Under the pieces are notes generated by a model, which was not told the DNA's origin, did no database searches, and worked only from the letters and a program-made list of their open reading frames with translations. Positions 3,917-26,241 of a stretch of 26,915 nt of DNA are shown here, piece after piece. The number at the start of each line of letters is the position of its first letter. The stretch's first letter is position 1. The translations under genes and the position numbers were made by a program. Source of the stretch: a virus (Duplodnaviria; Heunggongvirae; Uroviricota; Caudoviricetes); the IMG/VR virus record IMGVR_UViG_2541047885_000002, positions 1-26,915 of that record; one strand, given 5' to 3'.

Positions 3917-4565
3917 TGGCAGCAAATACCGAAATATTTGGGTAGTTGGCGATCTGCACGGATGCTACACGAACCTGATGAAAAAACTGGAGACGATAGG
4001 ATTCGACACCAAAAAAGACCTGCTTATCTCGGTTGGCGATTTGGTCGATCGCGGTACAGAGAACGTCGAATGTCTGGAATTAATCACATTCCCCTGGTTC
4101 CGAGCTGTACGTGGAAACCATGAGCAAATGATGATTGATGGCTTATCAGAGCGTGGAAACGTCAATCACTGGATGCTTAATGGCGGTGGCTGGTTCTTTA
4201 ATCTCGATTACGACAAAGAAATTCTGGCTAAAGCTCTTGCCCATAAAGCAGATGAACTTCCGTTAATCATCGAACTGGTGAGCAAAGATAAAAAATATGT
4301 CATCTGCCACGCCGATTATCCTTGTGACGAATACGAGTTTGGAAAGCCAGTTGATCATCAGCAGGTAATCTGGAACCGCGAACGAATCAGCAACTCACAA
4401 GACGGGATCGTAAAAGAAATCAAAGGAGCGGACACGTTCATCTTTGGTCATACGCCAGCAGTGAAACCACTCAAATTTGCCAACCAGATGTATATCGATA
4501 CCGGCGCAGTGTTCTGCGGAAACCTCACATTGATTCAGGTACAGGGAGAAGGCGCGTGGGCATAA
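3894..4565 (+). CDS. ninI: NinI, Ser/Thr protein phosphatase (lambda-PPase, metallophosphoesterase)
   Basis: Starts [28 protein letters not shown] with the GDLHG, GDLVDRG and GNHE metallophosphatase motifs; SD GGAG upstream of ATG 3894. The track's longer ORF from 3819 is rejected as an upstream in-frame extension. Confidence 0.93.
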
Positions 4566-5074
4566 GAGAACTAAACCTCACCAAAGAACAGCATGAGTGG
4601 CTGAATGGCTGGCTTGAACTGTGGGGCGCATGGGTTTATTCAGGTCGTCTGGAAAAGCGCATGAGCAGCGTAATAGCGAAGTTCATGGAGAGCGTAGAGC
4701 CGGGAAGAGTTATGACAAGGCCAATGTGCAATGATGATGATGGAATGTTGATTTCTCAGGTCGTCGATTCCGTCATGTACATTGACAAAAAAGCCTTTGG
4801 CATCCTCCTCAGCTACTACGCTCATGGTTCATCTAAGCGAGCAATTGCATCCTACTATCACGCGACTGCAAAGCCACGCAAGATGTGTGGACGTGGTGGC
4901 GAGGGATGGAGAAAACCTTCACTGGCAACCTGTAGAAACGAAATTGACGACATCCTGAAAGCGTCATTATTTGTTTTATACCAGCCAATGCAAAATGCTT
5001 TCAAAATGCGTAAACGTGTTGAGAAAGTTAAGCATGTTGCTGTTAAAAGCCTTGACATGCAATTAGCCATTTAG
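4556..5074 (+). CDS. Q: Late antiterminator Q (phage 21/933W-type, not lambda-type)
   Basis: Position directly after ninI and directly before a promoter-terminator pair. N-terminal LELWGAW resembles the LERWGAW motif I recall from Q of 933W/H-19B. Start taken as GTG 4556 after GGGAGAAGG; the exact start is uncertain. Confidence 0.7.
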
Positions 5075-5081
5075 CCATAAT
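5052..5081 (+). promoter_or_regulatory. Candidate late promoter PR' (sigma70), overlapping the 3' end of Q
   Basis: TTGACA (5052-5057), 18-bp spacer, CATAAT (5076-5081). Location matches PR' of lambdoid phages, where the qut site overlaps the promoter. Confidence 0.6.
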
Positions 5082-5122
5082 ATTCACATATGCTGCTGCT
5101 TTTGCATTCAGCAACCATCACA

Positions 5123-5146
5123 AGCCCACCTCCTGTGGGCTTTTTT
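5123..5146 (+). terminator. Intrinsic terminator, candidate tR' (target of Q antitermination)
   Basis: Stem GCCCAC (5124-5129), loop CTCCT, stem GTGGGC (5135-5140), then TTTTTT; about 60 nt downstream of the predicted PR' start. Confidence 0.75.
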
Positions 5147-5268
5147 GCATTCGCGTGCAATCAAAACAAGAGTCTTAGTGATATGGGCCTGAGATATGGT
5201 GGTGGAAACATCGCTCCGCTCTTGGCTGTCATATCTACGCGAACAGGCTCTATCCCTAAGGTAAAGCG

Positions 5269-5781
5269 ATGAAAGAAATAAAATTAACGCCAGAAATGGT
5301 GCTTTCTGTTGTTGATTACAATCCATCATCAGGCGACTTTCACTGGAGATGGAGGCAGGGGAGAGAGAGGACCACTTTGACATGGAACTCTCGTTTTGCT
5401 TTCAAGAAATGCTCATCAATAAATTCTGATGGGTATTTAATGATTATGATTAATGGTAAAGCATGCCCTGCTCACAGACTGGCATGGTTGATTGTTTATG
5501 GCACCATGCCCGATGGTTTTATTGATCACATCAACAGGGTAAGAACAGATAACCGGATATCAAATCTTCGTCTTGTCACTCATTCCGAAAATATGCAAAA
5601 CAGGAAAATTCAGAAGAATAATAAATCTGGATACCGTGGCGTGTCTTGGGATGCTAAGTACGGGAAATGGAGAGCAAGAATTAATGCGTCTGGAAAGTGT
5701 ATTAACCTTGGATACCATGACACTGCCGAACTTGCCGCTGCGGCTTTTGAGGCAGCCAGAATGAAATATCATACCGTTTAA
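5269..5781 (+). CDS. HNH endonuclease with C-terminal AP2-type DNA-binding domain (moron)
   Basis: HNH core ...AHRLAWLIVYGTMPDGFIDHINRVRTDNRISNLRLVTHSENMQN... and AP2-like SGYRGVSWDAKYGKWRARINASGKCINLGYHDTAELAAAAFEAA. SD AAGGTAA upstream. Confidence 0.8.
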   Translation: MKEIKLTPEMVLSVVDYNPSSGDFHWRWRQGRERTTLTWNSRFAFKKCSSINSDGYLMIMINGKACPAHRLAWLIVYGTMPDGFIDHINRVRTDNRISNLRLVTHSENMQNRKIQKNNKSGYRGVSWDAKYGKWRARINASGKCINLGYHDTAELAAAAFEAARMKYHTV

Positions 5782-5787
5782 AGATGT

Positions 5788-5832
5788 AAGCTGCCGTTAG
5801 TGACTCTTAAGTTGCAACGGTGGCTTTTTTTA
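5788..5832 (+). terminator. Putative intrinsic terminator after the HNH gene
   Basis: AAGCTGCCGTT (5788-5798) pairs with AACGGTGGCTT (5816-5826) including two G-U pairs, 17-nt loop, then a T7 run. The large loop lowers confidence. Confidence 0.45.
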
Positions 5833-6080
5833 TTTGCACAACAGGTAAGAGCATTGAGTCGATAATCGTGAAGAGTCGGCGCGCCTGGTTAGCCAGTGCT
5901 CTTTCCGTTGTGCTGAATTAAGCGAATACCGGAAGCAGAACCGGATCACCAAATGCGTACAGGCGTCATCGCCGCCCAGCAACAGCACAACCCAAACTGA
6001 GCCGTAGCCACTGGCTATCCTGAATTCATCAGTGATAGTTACGCTGCGGCCTTCTACACATGACCTTCGTGAAAGCGGGT

Positions 6081-6115
6081 GGCAAGAGGTTGCGCTAACA
6101 ACCTCCTGCCGTTTT
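6081..6115 (+). terminator. Strong hairpin plus U-tract in the late leader (candidate terminator or RNA structure)
   Basis: GGCAAGAGGTTG (6081-6092), loop CGCTAA, CAACCTCCTGCC (6099-6110) giving 11 of 12 pairs, followed by GTTTT. Confidence 0.5.
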
Positions 6116-6215
6116 GCCCGTGCATATCGGTCACGAACAAATCTGATTACTAAACACAGTAGCCTGGATTTGTTCTATCAGTAATCGACCTTATTCCTAA
6201 TTAAATAGAGCAAAT

Positions 6216-6231
6216 CCCCTCAATGAAGGGG
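6216..6231 (+). promoter_or_regulatory. Hairpin sequestering the holin Shine-Dalgarno sequence (sdi-like)
   Basis: CCCCT (6216-6220) pairs with AGGGG (6227-6231), loop CAATGA; the 3' arm is the holin SD, 6 nt before ATG 6238. Confidence 0.5.
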
Positions 6232-6237
6232 TAGAGC

Positions 6238-6441
6238 ATGTACCGTATGGACAAAATCAGAGAATGGTTCAGTTACAGCTTCGGAGGACTGACTGCGATG
6301 GGTGGCATTCTCTCCCTGAATGACTGGGCTGTCATCATTGGTATTCTTTGTACTGTCGGCACATTTGGCATCAACTGGTACTACAAGCGCAAAGAGCGCG
6401 AGGACAGATTGAATGGCAATGTCACCGGCACTACGAAATAG
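6238..6441 (+). CDS. Holin, phage-21 S-like class II pinholin with dual-start motif
   Basis: 67 aa, two TM segments (Gly-rich [17 protein letters not shown] and [19 protein letters not shown]), charged C-terminus, N-terminus MYRMDKI paralleling S21 MKSMDKI. Immediately upstream of the endolysin. Confidence 0.8.
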
Positions 6442-25979: not shown

Positions 25980-26179
25980 GTAAAGAATGTTGTTTCTGCG
26001 GCATTAGCGAATCAGACGCTGATCAAACATACATTTACTCTAAAGAAACAGGTCGGATGCTGTGTAGTGACTGCGTGTTGGACATCATAAGATACAAGCA
26101 TCTTGGATGTTCTGCCAGCATTAGCAATATAGGTGAAGTATACGAAGGGAAAGATATAACTGATAGAGCAGAAAGTTGA
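25976..26179 (+). CDS. Small Cys-rich (zinc-ribbon-like) protein
   Basis: 67 aa with CCFCG ... CSDC; ATGA overlap with the arc-like stop; between arc and the antirepressor gene. Confidence 0.5.
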
Positions 26180-26241
26180 AGCCCCAACTGCTGGAACAGT
26201 CAGGGCTTCGGTATCAACAAATCGGCTTAGGAAATATTGAC

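What the first reader, a model, noticed from the sequence alone, without database searches (positions are those of the whole stretch)
5782..6237. About 450 bp without a convincing ORF between the HNH moron and the holin, containing a strong hairpin plus U-tract
I found no ORF of 60 aa or more and no tRNA-like sequence here, yet the stretch contains a 12-bp-stem hairpin followed by GTTTT (6081-6115) and the interleaved repeats above. In lambdoid phages this slot often holds tRNAs or toxin cargo, so this may be a remnant of a deleted insert or encode a small RNA.
Basis: seen in the sequence. Interest (0 to 1): 0.35.

Follow-up and report, generated by a model that had tools for sequence, protein, structure and literature searches.

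The report
Lambda-type late-operon leader with LPR2 sRNA
The "empty" 450 bp between the HNH gene and the holin is the well-conserved untranslated leader of a lambda-like phage's late operon; it is a chain of folded RNA modules that includes a copy of the small RNA LPR2 recently found in phage lambda, so it is neither a deletion scar nor a gene-free accident.

Summary
There is no ORF of 60 aa or more and no tRNA, and an 11/12-bp hairpin (6081-6092/6099-6110) is followed by GUUUU.

The stretch is not a remnant. Window 5822-6220 is 97.3% identical to phage lambda 44771-45170, the leader between terminator tR' and holin gene S. It recurs in 201 phage records and in 1484 of 5426 complete E. coli genomes.

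It reads as a chain of RNA modules:
- an intrinsic terminator (5788-5833);
- a 21-bp "clamp" stem (5836-5913) that encloses the homolog of lambda LPR2, a ~63-nt Hfq-bound sRNA whose published northern probe matches 5866-5900 at 34 of 35 bases;
- conserved hairpins H3, H4 and H5;
- the stem-loop that masks the holin ribosome-binding site at a dual start (M-Y-R-M).

The flagged hairpin is the top of a three-tier structure that is also present in P22-like leaders. Its U-run is not conserved there, so it is probably not a terminator.

The small-RNA idea is right, but at different coordinates. The LPR2 interior is complementary to the seed of the lambda sRNA PreS (-33.8 kcal/mol, z -3.75), and PreS is also present in this prophage.

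Across related phages the clamp arms covary while the interior falls into at least 27 unrelated classes. This looks like an undescribed modular RNA family.

The parts
5052..5081 (+). PR'-type late promoter (TTGACA-18-CATAAT) at the end of the Q gene. It is the presumed source of all + strand transcription through the region.
   Evidence: 11 of 12 consensus matches. Q family PF06530 for 4556-5074. Same position as the annotated P late in P22.
5122..5148 (+). First intrinsic terminator after PR', upstream of the HNH-AP2 insertion.
   Evidence: 8-bp stem with 5 GC pairs, followed by T6.
5788..5833 (+). Second intrinsic terminator (tR'-type): stem 5788-5826 followed by U7 at 5827-5833.
   Evidence: -20.2 kcal/mol, z -5.4. 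The same sequence directly follows PR' in CUS-3.
5836..5913 (+). LPR2-type clamp element. 5' arm GCACAACAGGTAAGAGCATTGA, a 36-nt interior, and 3' arm CAGTGCTCTTTCCGTTGTGC, forming an imperfect 21-bp stem.
   Evidence: -34 kcal/mol, z -3.8. Arm covariation. Family census.
5844..5906 (+). Inferred mature LPR2 homolog (63 nt). The ends are inferred from the ~63-nt size reported for lambda and have not been mapped.
   Evidence: The reverse complement of probe P844 equals 5866-5900 with one mismatch. The interior 5858-5893 pairs with PreS nt 18-51.
5920..6000 (+). C-rich, G-poor, A-rich spacer specific to the lambda-type leader; possibly rut-like.
   Evidence: GC skew -0.2 to -0.28. It is absent or replaced in CUS-3.
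6001..6050 (+). Hairpin H3.
   Evidence: The basal stem is kept in 30 variants, and changes are of the A-U/G.U and C-G/U.G type. The inner helix is degenerate in lambda itself.
6066..6137 (+). Three-tier hairpin H4.
6135..6175 (+). Hairpin H5 (GAACAAAUC / GAUUUGUUC). Its 3' arm can alternatively pair with 6205-6217.
   Evidence: repeats I7 and I2. (both pairings 92-100% kept in 59 variants).
6216..6231 (+). sdi-type stem-loop (CCCCU/AGGGG) that occludes the Shine-Dalgarno sequence of the first holin start.
   Evidence: arms covary: CCCC/GGGG, CCUCAC/GUGAGG, CUCC/GGAG. The role in lambda S is as stated in PMC3369941.
6238..6441 (+). Holin (HP1-family, 67 aa) with a dual start at ATG 6238 and ATG 6247 (M-Y-R-M).

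Best explanation
The stretch is the untranslated 5' leader of the late (lysis and morphogenesis) operon of a P22-like lambdoid prophage; an identical copy lies in E. coli VR50. It is transcribed rightward from PR' only when Q lets RNA polymerase read through two terminators (5122-5148 and 5788-5833). The leader is a chain of folded RNA modules.

(1) Directly after the second terminator lies a 21-bp clamp stem (5836-5913). It carries the homolog of lambda LPR2, a ~63-nt Hfq-bound sRNA that accumulates in lytic growth. LPR2 is most likely cut out of the read-through transcript (inferred: a double-strand-specific cut in the clamp, for example by RNase III, or RNase E plus trimming). Its 36-nt interior base-pairs with the seed region of the early sRNA PreS/LPR1, which this prophage also encodes, so it probably acts late in infection as a sponge for PreS.

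(2) Next come conserved hairpins H3, H4 and H5. The flagged hairpin is the top of H4. H4 is a conserved structural element of the mRNA leader and not a dedicated terminator.

(3) The leader ends in the sdi-type stem-loop, which masks the ribosome-binding site of the first of two holin start codons and so sets the antiholin/holin ratio.

What is shown: sequence identity to lambda, the folds, covariation, the probe match, complementarity to PreS, and absence of coding signal. What is inferred: expression in this prophage, the processing route, the sponge function, and the role of H3-H5.
For: Identity to lambda: 5822-6220 is 97.3% identical to lambda 44771-45170, between orf-64/tR' and S. There are 201 phage records, and 1484 of 5426 E. 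coli genomes, with nothing annotated at the matching positions in the rows listed.

LPR2: it is reported as a ~63-nt Hfq-enriched RNA next to 6S RNA in the late operon, mainly lytic, with RIL-seq partners PreS and fliC. Its probe P844 matches window 5866-5900 at 34 of 35 bases on the + strand.

Clamp: it folds with z -3.8. Across 35 arm variants, 87.7% of cells are paired, against 38-53% when partners are slid. Seven pairs change on both sides, the covariation score is 0.196 against 0.112+-0.008 (0 of 500 shuffles), and in the inner stem (pairs 14-22) nearly every departure from the commonest pair is a G.U/U.G wobble or another standard pair, which fits a + strand RNA.

LPR2-PreS pairing: LPR2 interior nt 1-36 pairs with PreS nt 18-51, including the region removed in the authors' seed deletion. 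The duplex is -33.8 kcal/mol, z -3.75, reached by about 1 in 1000 shuffles. The window's single substitution lies in an unpaired bulge. PreS is 100% identical over 79 nt in the same VR50 prophage.

No internal + strand promoter is predicted.

H4: it is kept in P22, ES18, g341c and an Enterobacter phage at about 75% identity. Compensatory changes occur at pair 10 (U-A to C-G) and in the outer stem (C-G to U-A). The loop is invariant, and the U-run is replaced by UGAUCU/UGAUUU.

sdi: the hairpin arms covary and the dual start is present.

Non-coding: variable columns fall 7/8/10 by codon position, the GTG start of the 50-aa ORF is GTA in lambda, and Pfam is empty.
Against: LPR2 has been shown only in lambda and only in one preprint. 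Its ends, its processing and its function are unmapped.

In a scan of the whole lambda genome, several windows pair with the LPR2 interior as well as or better than PreS by raw duplex energy (-35 to -38.5 against -33.8 kcal/mol). The complementarity is therefore suggestive, not unique.

CUS-3 has PreS (97.7%) but a different clamp interior with no PreS complementarity (z -0.3) and no standout target in its own genome. Sponge function cannot be general to the family.

Within lambda-like sequences the H4 inner stem tolerates many A.C/C.A mismatches, and its pair 6085/6106 varies independently. Selection on that helix as + strand RNA is therefore weak or complicated.

No expression data exist for this prophage.
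Confidence: 0.75

Rival explanations
1. The flagged hairpin plus GUUUU (6081-6115) is a second-line intrinsic terminator. It stops polymerases that leak through tR' without Q and so keeps the lysis genes silent in lysogens. Q-modified polymerase ignores it.
For: It is a GC-rich 11/12-bp stem followed by four U. One automated phage annotation (MG40) lists a terminator feature among those lying somewhere under a 173-nt match (window 6065-6237) that includes this hairpin (H57). From my own memory, unverified, older lambda work described tandem terminators downstream of p'R; a literature search found nothing.
Against: It has only 4 U and fails the consensus terminator scan. In P22-like leaders the tail is UGAUCU/UGAUUU while the hairpin is kept. 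The tail is predicted to be an internal loop closed by a conserved outer stem (6075-6080/6116-6121) and a base stem, and this competes with terminator function.
Confidence: 0.2
2. The block is kept mainly at the DNA level as a 'boundary sequence': a stretch of near-identical DNA between exchangeable modules that serves as a crossover site for homologous recombination among lambdoid phages. It has no RNA function of its own beyond the sdi hairpin.
For: Identity is 95-99% across Escherichia, Salmonella, Klebsiella and Shigella phages that carry different Q and holin genes. CUS-3 annotates the 3' 241 bp as 'bsq3; boundary sequence' and the post-Q piece as bsq4. Mosaic joints fall exactly at the clamp arms and at the sdi loop. 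The clamp and the H4 block occur independently: 31 of 105 loci have the clamp without H4, and P22 has H4 without the clamp.
Against: A pure DNA role does not explain several results: the arms are inverted repeats of each other with compensatory and G.U-only changes; the strong excess of RNA structure (z -6.1); covariation in the H4 outer stem and the sdi hairpin across 75%-identical leaders; and a discrete Hfq-bound RNA from this spot in lambda. The two roles are not mutually exclusive.
Confidence: 0.25
3. The stretch is a degenerate remnant of a tRNA or cargo insert that once occupied the Q-S slot.
For: Relatives carry tRNA-Thr/Asn/Arg here. Some clamp interiors in other phages end in tRNA T-arm-like GGTTCGAnTCC minihelices. 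tRNA genes abut the clamp in L005 and L062.
Against: The sequence is the full-length canonical lambda leader with no truncation relative to lambda. ARAGORN and the Rfam tRNA model find nothing here. The window's interior has no T-arm motif.
Confidence: 0.04
4. A small protein is encoded, for example the 50-aa ORF at 6032..6184.
For: Some phage records annotate 'hypothetical protein' under the match.
Against: The GTG start is GTA in lambda. There are one-base indels relative to P22-like leaders. There is no third-position excess of variable sites (7/8/10). Pfam finds nothing. The ORF runs through conserved stems.
Confidence: 0.03

Closest known systems
Phage lambda late leader (tR' to S, nt 44771-45185), including sRNA LPR2 (Silverman et al., bioRxiv 10.1101/2024.10.31.621285)
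   Same: 97.3% nucleotide identity over 399 bp. It occupies the same position after a tR'-type terminator and before the holin. The LPR2 probe region matches at 34 of 35 bases. The PreS-complementary interior is the same.
   Different: Here the leader is flanked by a different Q (PF06530 type, as in CUS-3), by an inserted HNH-AP2 gene with an extra terminator, and by a different holin (HP1 family, 67 aa) and a SAR endolysin. One substitution (A to C at 5882) lies in the LPR2 interior.
Lambda S / P22 gene 13 sdi stem-loop with dual-start motif
   Same: A stem-loop ending in the Shine-Dalgarno sequence lies 6 nt before ATG1. A second ATG lies three codons later, with a basic residue (Arg) between them.
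   Different: The holin belongs to an unrelated family. The loop is longer (CAAUGA against UUAUU), and the starts are at codons 1 and 4 rather than 1 and 3.
Anti-sRNAs AgvB/AsxR of EHEC lambdoid prophages (Rfam RF02702/RF02703; Tree et al. 2014, PMC4104026)
   Same: They are encoded in the same moron slot 3' of PR', are Hfq-bound and short, sponge another sRNA, and consist of a conserved part plus a variable targeting part.
   Different: There is no Rfam hit even at E<=10. AgvB and AsxR are primary transcripts of 51-60 nt with a conserved 3' terminator and a variable 5' end, often antisense to the late operon. LPR2 is sense, lies between two conserved arms and lacks a terminator.
StxS and the Pas sRNAs (PasA/C/D) of Stx-type and EPEC prophages
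   Same: They are sRNAs arising next to PR' and the holin-lysozyme operon.
   Different: StxS is the tR'-terminated PR' transcript itself. The Pas sRNAs end in intrinsic terminators. The STnc100/PasD-type model does not hit the window.
'Boundary sequences' bsq3/bsq4 of HK620/CUS-3-type phages
   Same: Window 5990-6237 corresponds to bsq3 of CUS-3, and 5786-5833 corresponds to part of bsq4.
   Different: That annotation proposes only a recombination role. The RNA folds, the covariation and the sRNA are not part of it.

Membership tests
Lambda late-operon leader (tR'-S) | Nucleotide homology to lambda 44771-45185 across its full length | tested here: met
   97.3% over query positions 41-439; alignment.
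Lambda late-operon leader (tR'-S) | Position downstream of Q, PR' and an intrinsic terminator, and immediately upstream of the holin | tested here: met
LPR2 sRNA | Sequence matching the published northern probe, on the strand of the late operon | tested here: met
   The reverse complement of P844 equals 5866-5900 at 34 of 35 bases.
LPR2 sRNA | A discrete ~63-nt RNA, enriched on Hfq, expressed in the lytic cycle | not testable with these tools
   Shown only for lambda. No expression data exist for this prophage.
LPR2 sRNA | Interaction with PreS (RIL-seq chimeras) | tested here: inconclusive
   The predicted duplex is -33.8 kcal/mol and z -3.75 against shuffles, and PreS is present in the prophage. 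It is not the best-pairing site in the lambda genome.
Intrinsic (Rho-independent) terminator, for 6081-6115 | GC-rich stem-loop | tested here: met
Intrinsic (Rho-independent) terminator, for 6081-6115 | A U-tract directly after the stem (at least 5 of 8) that is conserved among homologs | tested here: not met
   GUUUUGCC has 4 U and is not called by the scan. The tail is UGAUCU/UGAUUU in P22-like leaders.
tRNA / tmRNA | Cloverleaf detected by ARAGORN or the Rfam tRNA model | tested here: not met
AgvB/AsxR anti-sRNA, STnc100, int-alpA and other Rfam families | Match to the covariance model | tested here: not met
   No hit within the leader modules in 5000-6300 at E<=10. int-alpA is found only in other loci.
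sdi / dual-start holin control | [quoted passage not shown] | tested here: met
   Hairpin 6216-6231, ATG at 6238 and 6247, M-Y-R-M. The definition follows PMC3369941. The effect on translation was not tested.
Protein-coding gene | A conserved ORF with codon-position bias | tested here: not met

The most novel reading that the evidence does not exclude
The LPR2 clamp is one member of an undescribed family of modular phage RNAs. A near-invariant, covarying ~21-bp stem sits just after the late terminator and presents an exchangeable 23-141-nt 'payload'. There are at least 27 unrelated payload classes among 158 elements. Some occur in tandem arrays, some are tRNA-minihelix-like, and one (lambda type) mimics the target of PreS. 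On this reading the clamp is a processing and stabilising scaffold, comparable to a pri-miRNA stem or an expression cassette, that lets lambdoid phages swap late-expressed regulatory RNAs by recombination at the arms.
Probability: 0.35. Interest if true: 0.7.

Novelty: new member of a known kind. Interest (0 to 1): 0.45.

Why it matters
At face value the finding is ordinary. It is one more copy of the long-sequenced lambda late leader, and its only experimentally supported product (LPR2) has already been reported.

Three things make it worth keeping.

First, about 400 bp that annotation pipelines leave blank in roughly a quarter of complete E. coli genomes can now be read as defined RNA modules with coordinates.

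Second, the LPR2 interior is complementary to the PreS seed, and both RNAs co-occur in an unrelated P22-like prophage. This gives a concrete, testable mechanism, a late sponge that switches off an early sRNA, for an RNA whose function is open.

Third, the conserved-clamp, variable-payload architecture is absent from Rfam and suggests a general way for temperate phages to carry and exchange small regulatory RNAs.

Tried and rejected
- Rfam at gathering scores and at E<=10: nothing within the leader modules (only a chance-level ctRNA_p42d row over the terminator).
- tRNA search: none.
- Protein reading: Pfam is empty, the start codon is not conserved and there is no codon-position bias.
- Idea that the clamp interior always matches the phage's own PreS: rejected. 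CUS-3 has PreS but an unrelated interior with z -0.3.
- Idea that each interior has an obvious antisense target in its own genome: no standout hit for CUS-3. For lambda, PreS is not the top site by raw duplex energy.
- Idea that clamp elements with T-arm motifs are cryptic tRNAs: ARAGORN calls none.
- Looked for the clamp or the H4 block in the E. coli K-12 cryptic prophages DLP12 and Qin, to use K-12 annotation or RIL-seq: absent.
- Search for the old lambda 'tandem terminators' paper: not in the library. That recollection is unverified.
- RNAalifold on the 59-sequence alignment gave an implausible consensus for H4, so I counted pairs on my own named stems instead.
- Resemblance of the arm ends (GCACAAC...GTTGTGC) to integron attC R''/R' boxes: dismissed as coincidence. 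There is one mismatch to each consensus, no integrase, and the arms are conserved over their full length, unlike attC.

Full report
**1. The observation**

The sequence at 5782-6237 lies between the stop codon of an HNH_3+AP2 ORF (5269-5781) and the ATG of a 67-aa HP1-family holin (6238). No ORF of 60 aa or more starts inside it. The longest are a 50-aa GTG ORF on the + strand (6032..6184) and a 52-aa ORF on the - strand. ARAGORN finds no tRNA in the whole window. Rfam finds nothing here at gathering scores, and nothing within the leader modules at E<=10 (the only in-range row is a chance-level ctRNA_p42d match over the terminator).

The flagged hairpin exists. Its arms are 6081-6092 and 6099-6110, with 11 of 12 pairs (A6085.C6106 mismatch), a loop CGCTAA, then GTTTT at 6111-6115. 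It folds at -25.8 kcal/mol, z -3.46. The whole stretch is much more structured than dinucleotide shuffles (z -6.1).

**2. What the stretch is**

Window 5822-6220 is 97.3% identical to phage lambda 44771-45170. That is the segment between the end of orf-64/tR' and the S start at 45186.

- 201 phage records match at 90-99% identity. They come from Escherichia, Salmonella, Klebsiella and Shigella and include both lambda-like and P22-like phages.
- 1484 of 5426 complete E. coli genomes match, and none of the listed rows has an annotated feature under the match.
- The window itself is 100% identical to a P22-like prophage next to torS in E. coli VR50.
- In CUS-3 the 3' 241 bp is annotated 'bsq3; boundary sequence'.
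- An exact 21-mer from the leader occurs in Yersinia, Klebsiella, Kluyvera, Superficieibacter, Acerihabitans and E. coli. It also occurs in many unrelated taxa, on tiny contigs or ~48.4-kb contigs at coverage ~1, which I read as lambda DNA contamination.

The stretch is therefore the canonical late-operon leader, not a deletion scar. Compared with CUS-3, the novelty in this window lies upstream. About 700 bp, comprising a new terminator (5122-5148) plus the HNH-AP2 gene, has been inserted between the PR' -10 element (5076-5081) and the ancestral tR'-type terminator (5788-5833).

**3. Anatomy**

From 5' to 3':

(a) Terminator 5788-5826 plus U7 (-20.2 kcal/mol, z -5.4).

(b) Clamp element 5836-5913. 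The 5' arm GCACAACAGGTAAGAGCATTGA and the 3' arm CAGTGCTCTTTCCGTTGTGC form an imperfect 21-bp stem around a 36-nt interior (-34 kcal/mol, z -3.8).

(c) A C-rich, G-poor spacer at 5920-6000.

(d) Hairpin H3 at 6001-6050.

(e) H4, a three-tier hairpin. Its base stem is 6066-6072/6131-6137, its outer stem is 6075-6080/6116-6121, and its inner stem is the flagged hairpin.

(f) H5 at 6135-6143/6167-6175. Its 3' arm can alternatively pair with 6205-6217.

(g) A stem-loop at 6216-6231 whose 3' arm is the Shine-Dalgarno sequence for ATG 6238. A second in-frame ATG lies at 6247 (M-Y-R-M).

**4. The small RNA**

A RIL-seq study of lambda infection reports LPR2. It is a ~63-nt Hfq-enriched RNA next to 6S RNA in the late operon, it is seen by northern blot mainly in the lytic cycle, and its only chimera partners are PreS (LPR1) and fliC. 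The authors suggest it may sponge PreS (bioRxiv 10.1101/2024.10.31.621285).

Their probe P844 is the reverse complement of window 5866-5900 with a single mismatch. The window therefore carries an LPR2 homolog on the + strand inside the clamp. If the ends lie in the clamp stem, 5844-5906 is 63 nt; this is inferred and not mapped. No + strand promoter is predicted inside the region. The element starts 3 nt after a terminator's U-tract. This fits release from Q-dependent read-through transcripts, as does the lytic-only signal in lambda.

I folded the interior against PreS. LPR2 interior nt 1-36 pairs with PreS nt 18-51 at -33.8 kcal/mol, z -3.75, reached by about 1 in 1000 shuffles. The paired PreS segment includes UGUUCUGAUUAUUGGAA, the part removed by the authors' seed-deletion primers. 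The window's A-to-C change at 5882 lies in an unpaired bulge of that duplex. PreS is present at 100% identity over 79 nt in the same VR50 prophage, outside the window.

Two cautions apply. Several other lambda windows pair as well or better by raw energy. And CUS-3 carries PreS but a different interior that does not pair with it.

**5. The clamp family**

A scan of viral contigs with the 5' arm gave 119 loci. In nearly all of them the 3' arm, which the query did not force, follows within 200 nt, while the interior differs completely. A reciprocal scan with a variant 3' arm gave 47 loci with conserved 5' arms and, again, diverse interiors.

In total I collected 158 sense-strand elements with 66 distinct interiors. 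These fall into 27 clusters at 70% identity, range from 23 to 141 nt, and have a median between-cluster identity of 0.49.

On 35 distinct arm pairs the named 21-pair stem is 87.7% paired, against 38-53% for slid partners. Seven pairs change on both sides; for example the outer stem switches C-G/A-U, C-G/G-C and G-C/C-G between arm types. The covariation score is 0.196 against 0.112+-0.008, with 0 of 500 shuffles as high. In the inner stem (pairs 14-22) nearly every departure from the commonest pair is a G.U/U.G wobble or another standard pair, as expected for an RNA read from the + strand. The double changes mostly separate two arm clades, so they represent few independent events.

Other features of the family:
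- The element usually sits just after a terminator; T5 occurs within 40 nt upstream in 122 of 169 cases.
- Elements can occur in tandem about 240 nt apart with different arm types.
- tRNA genes sometimes abut the element.
- Five interior classes end in tRNA T-arm-like minihelices, yet none is called a tRNA.
- Rfam has no model that hits these elements.
- P22, ES18 and g341c lack the clamp, and 31 of 105 informative loci have the clamp without the H4 block. The modules are therefore separable.

**6. The flagged hairpin, H4**

Leaders of P22, ES18, g341c and an Enterobacter phage are only about 75% identical here but keep the structure:
- the loop CGCUAA is invariant;
- pair 10 switches from U-A to C-G;
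- the outer stem switches from C-G to U-A;
- the base stem UUCGUGA/UCACGAA is invariant;
- GUUUU becomes UGAUCU or UGAUUU.

The tail is predicted to be an internal loop. This argues against a terminator or an sRNA 3' end.

Within lambda-like sequences the picture is less tidy. Partner positions 6085 and 6106 both vary, and almost independently (GC 15, AC 15, GA 12, UA 5, UC 5, AU 4, AA 3). Most other changes hit the 5' arm and give A.C/C.A (55 cells) rather than G.U (3 cells). The outer and base stems, by contrast, use G.U pairs that work only on the + strand.

The 5' arm is Shine-Dalgarno-like (AGGAGGU in lambda) and the 3' arm is anti-SD-like (CCUCCU). I leave the role of H4 open. It is a structural element of the leader, possibly linked to mRNA processing or stability or to holin translation.

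**7. Holin start**

The stem-loop before the ATG covaries across leaders: CCCCU/AGGGG here, CCCC/GGGG in lambda, CCUCAC/GUGAGG in P22 and CUCC/GGAG in the Enterobacter phage. In lambda, an RNA stem-loop that includes the S ribosome-binding site sets the S105:S107 ratio of the dual-start motif (PMC3369941). Here the same leader end has been joined to an unrelated holin that also has two starts with an Arg between them.

The sequence GGAUUUGUUC (6166-6175) can pair either upstream (H5) or downstream with GAGCAAAUCC, which overlaps the sdi stem. Both partners are kept in all 59 variants. This could be a switch, but it is untested.

**8. Coding test**

Variable alignment columns within the 50-aa ORF fall 7/8/10 by codon position. 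Its GTG start is GTA in lambda. One-base indels separate the lambda-like and P22-like leaders. Pfam finds nothing.

**9. Comparison and verdict**

The region is a member of the lambda late-leader family, by sequence and by position. It contains an LPR2 homolog by sequence, with expression untested.
- It is not an AgvB/AsxR, STnc100/PasD or int-alpA member (model tests negative).
- It is not a tRNA.
- The flagged hairpin does not meet the U-tract criterion for a terminator.
- The DNA-level 'boundary sequence' idea remains a compatible partial explanation for the extreme nucleotide conservation and for mosaic joints at the arms. It does not account for the RNA-specific covariation or for the Hfq-bound RNA.

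As a finding this is a new copy of a known thing, with moderate interest. The wider observation is more novel: LPR2 sits in a conserved clamp that carries many unrelated payloads. That observation rests on my own analysis of about 160 elements and needs experiments.

Noticed in passing
window 26174-26240 (-): sar RNA (Rfam RF00262, 69 bits, E 1.3e-12), the antisense RNA of the P22 immI region. Together with the capsid and tailspike genes of the VR50 record, it shows that the window is a P22-like prophage carrying a lambda-type late leader.
   Followed up: partly
window 5082-5785: Relative to CUS-3, about 700 bp (a new leader, terminator 5122-5148 and the HNH_3+AP2 homing-endonuclease-like ORF 5269-5781) is inserted between the PR' -10 element and the ancestral tR'-type terminator. 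The late promoter is therefore followed by two terminators in series.
   Followed up: partly
L172 15643-15721 (-) = NZ_CP011134.1 1089642-1089720, outside the window: The same VR50 prophage encodes a 100%-identical copy (79 nt) of the lambda sRNA PreS/LPR1 in its early-left region. CUS-3 also has one, at 97.7% identity.
   Followed up: yes
L005 6793-6890 and 7029-7107; L037 10277-10360 and 10520-10600; L051 3707-3825 and 3954-4070: Tandem clamp elements lie about 240 nt apart with different arm types (for example ACACAACATGAAAGCGCAC...GTGCGCTTCCAGGTGTG, where A-U in the stem becomes C-G). In L005 a tRNA-Arg gene begins inside the last 3 nt of the 3' arm.
   Followed up: partly
L131, L150 and other loci (clamp interiors): Five of the 27 interior classes end in a tRNA T-arm-like minihelix (GGTTCGAnTCC). 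One interior (L051) also contains CTGATGAG...GAAAC, which recalls a hammerhead core, but Rfam calls no ribozyme there.
   Followed up: partly
L094 2579-2645 (+); L018 264-330 (-): The int-alpA RNA motif (RF02996) lies 130-160 nt downstream of the clamp in some phages. It is another structured RNA of unknown function in the same Q-S slot.
   Followed up: no
window 6085 and 6106: The two partner positions of one base pair in the flagged hairpin are both hypervariable and vary almost independently across lambda-like sequences, in an otherwise near-invariant 240 bp. The arms resemble SD (AGGAGGU) and anti-SD (CCUCCU) sequences.
   Followed up: partly
window 6135-6143 / 6166-6178 / 6205-6217: GGAUUUGUUC has two conserved, mutually exclusive partners. 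The downstream partner overlaps the sdi hairpin at the holin ribosome-binding site, so this may be a structural switch.
   Followed up: partly
window 5837-5843 and 5920-6000: The 5' clamp arm contains CACAACA, which PMC4104026 quotes as the GcvB R1 target consensus used by the sponge AgvB. The spacer downstream is C-rich and G-poor (GC skew to -0.28), which is rut-like.
   Followed up: no
Genome-contig loci L173-L202: The exact lambda leader sequence occurs in assemblies of Pseudoxanthomonas, Psychrobacter, Oceanobacillus, Shewanella, Bradyrhizobium, Kitasatospora and others, on tiny or ~48.4-kb contigs at coverage ~1. I read this as lambda DNA contamination of public assemblies.
   Followed up: no
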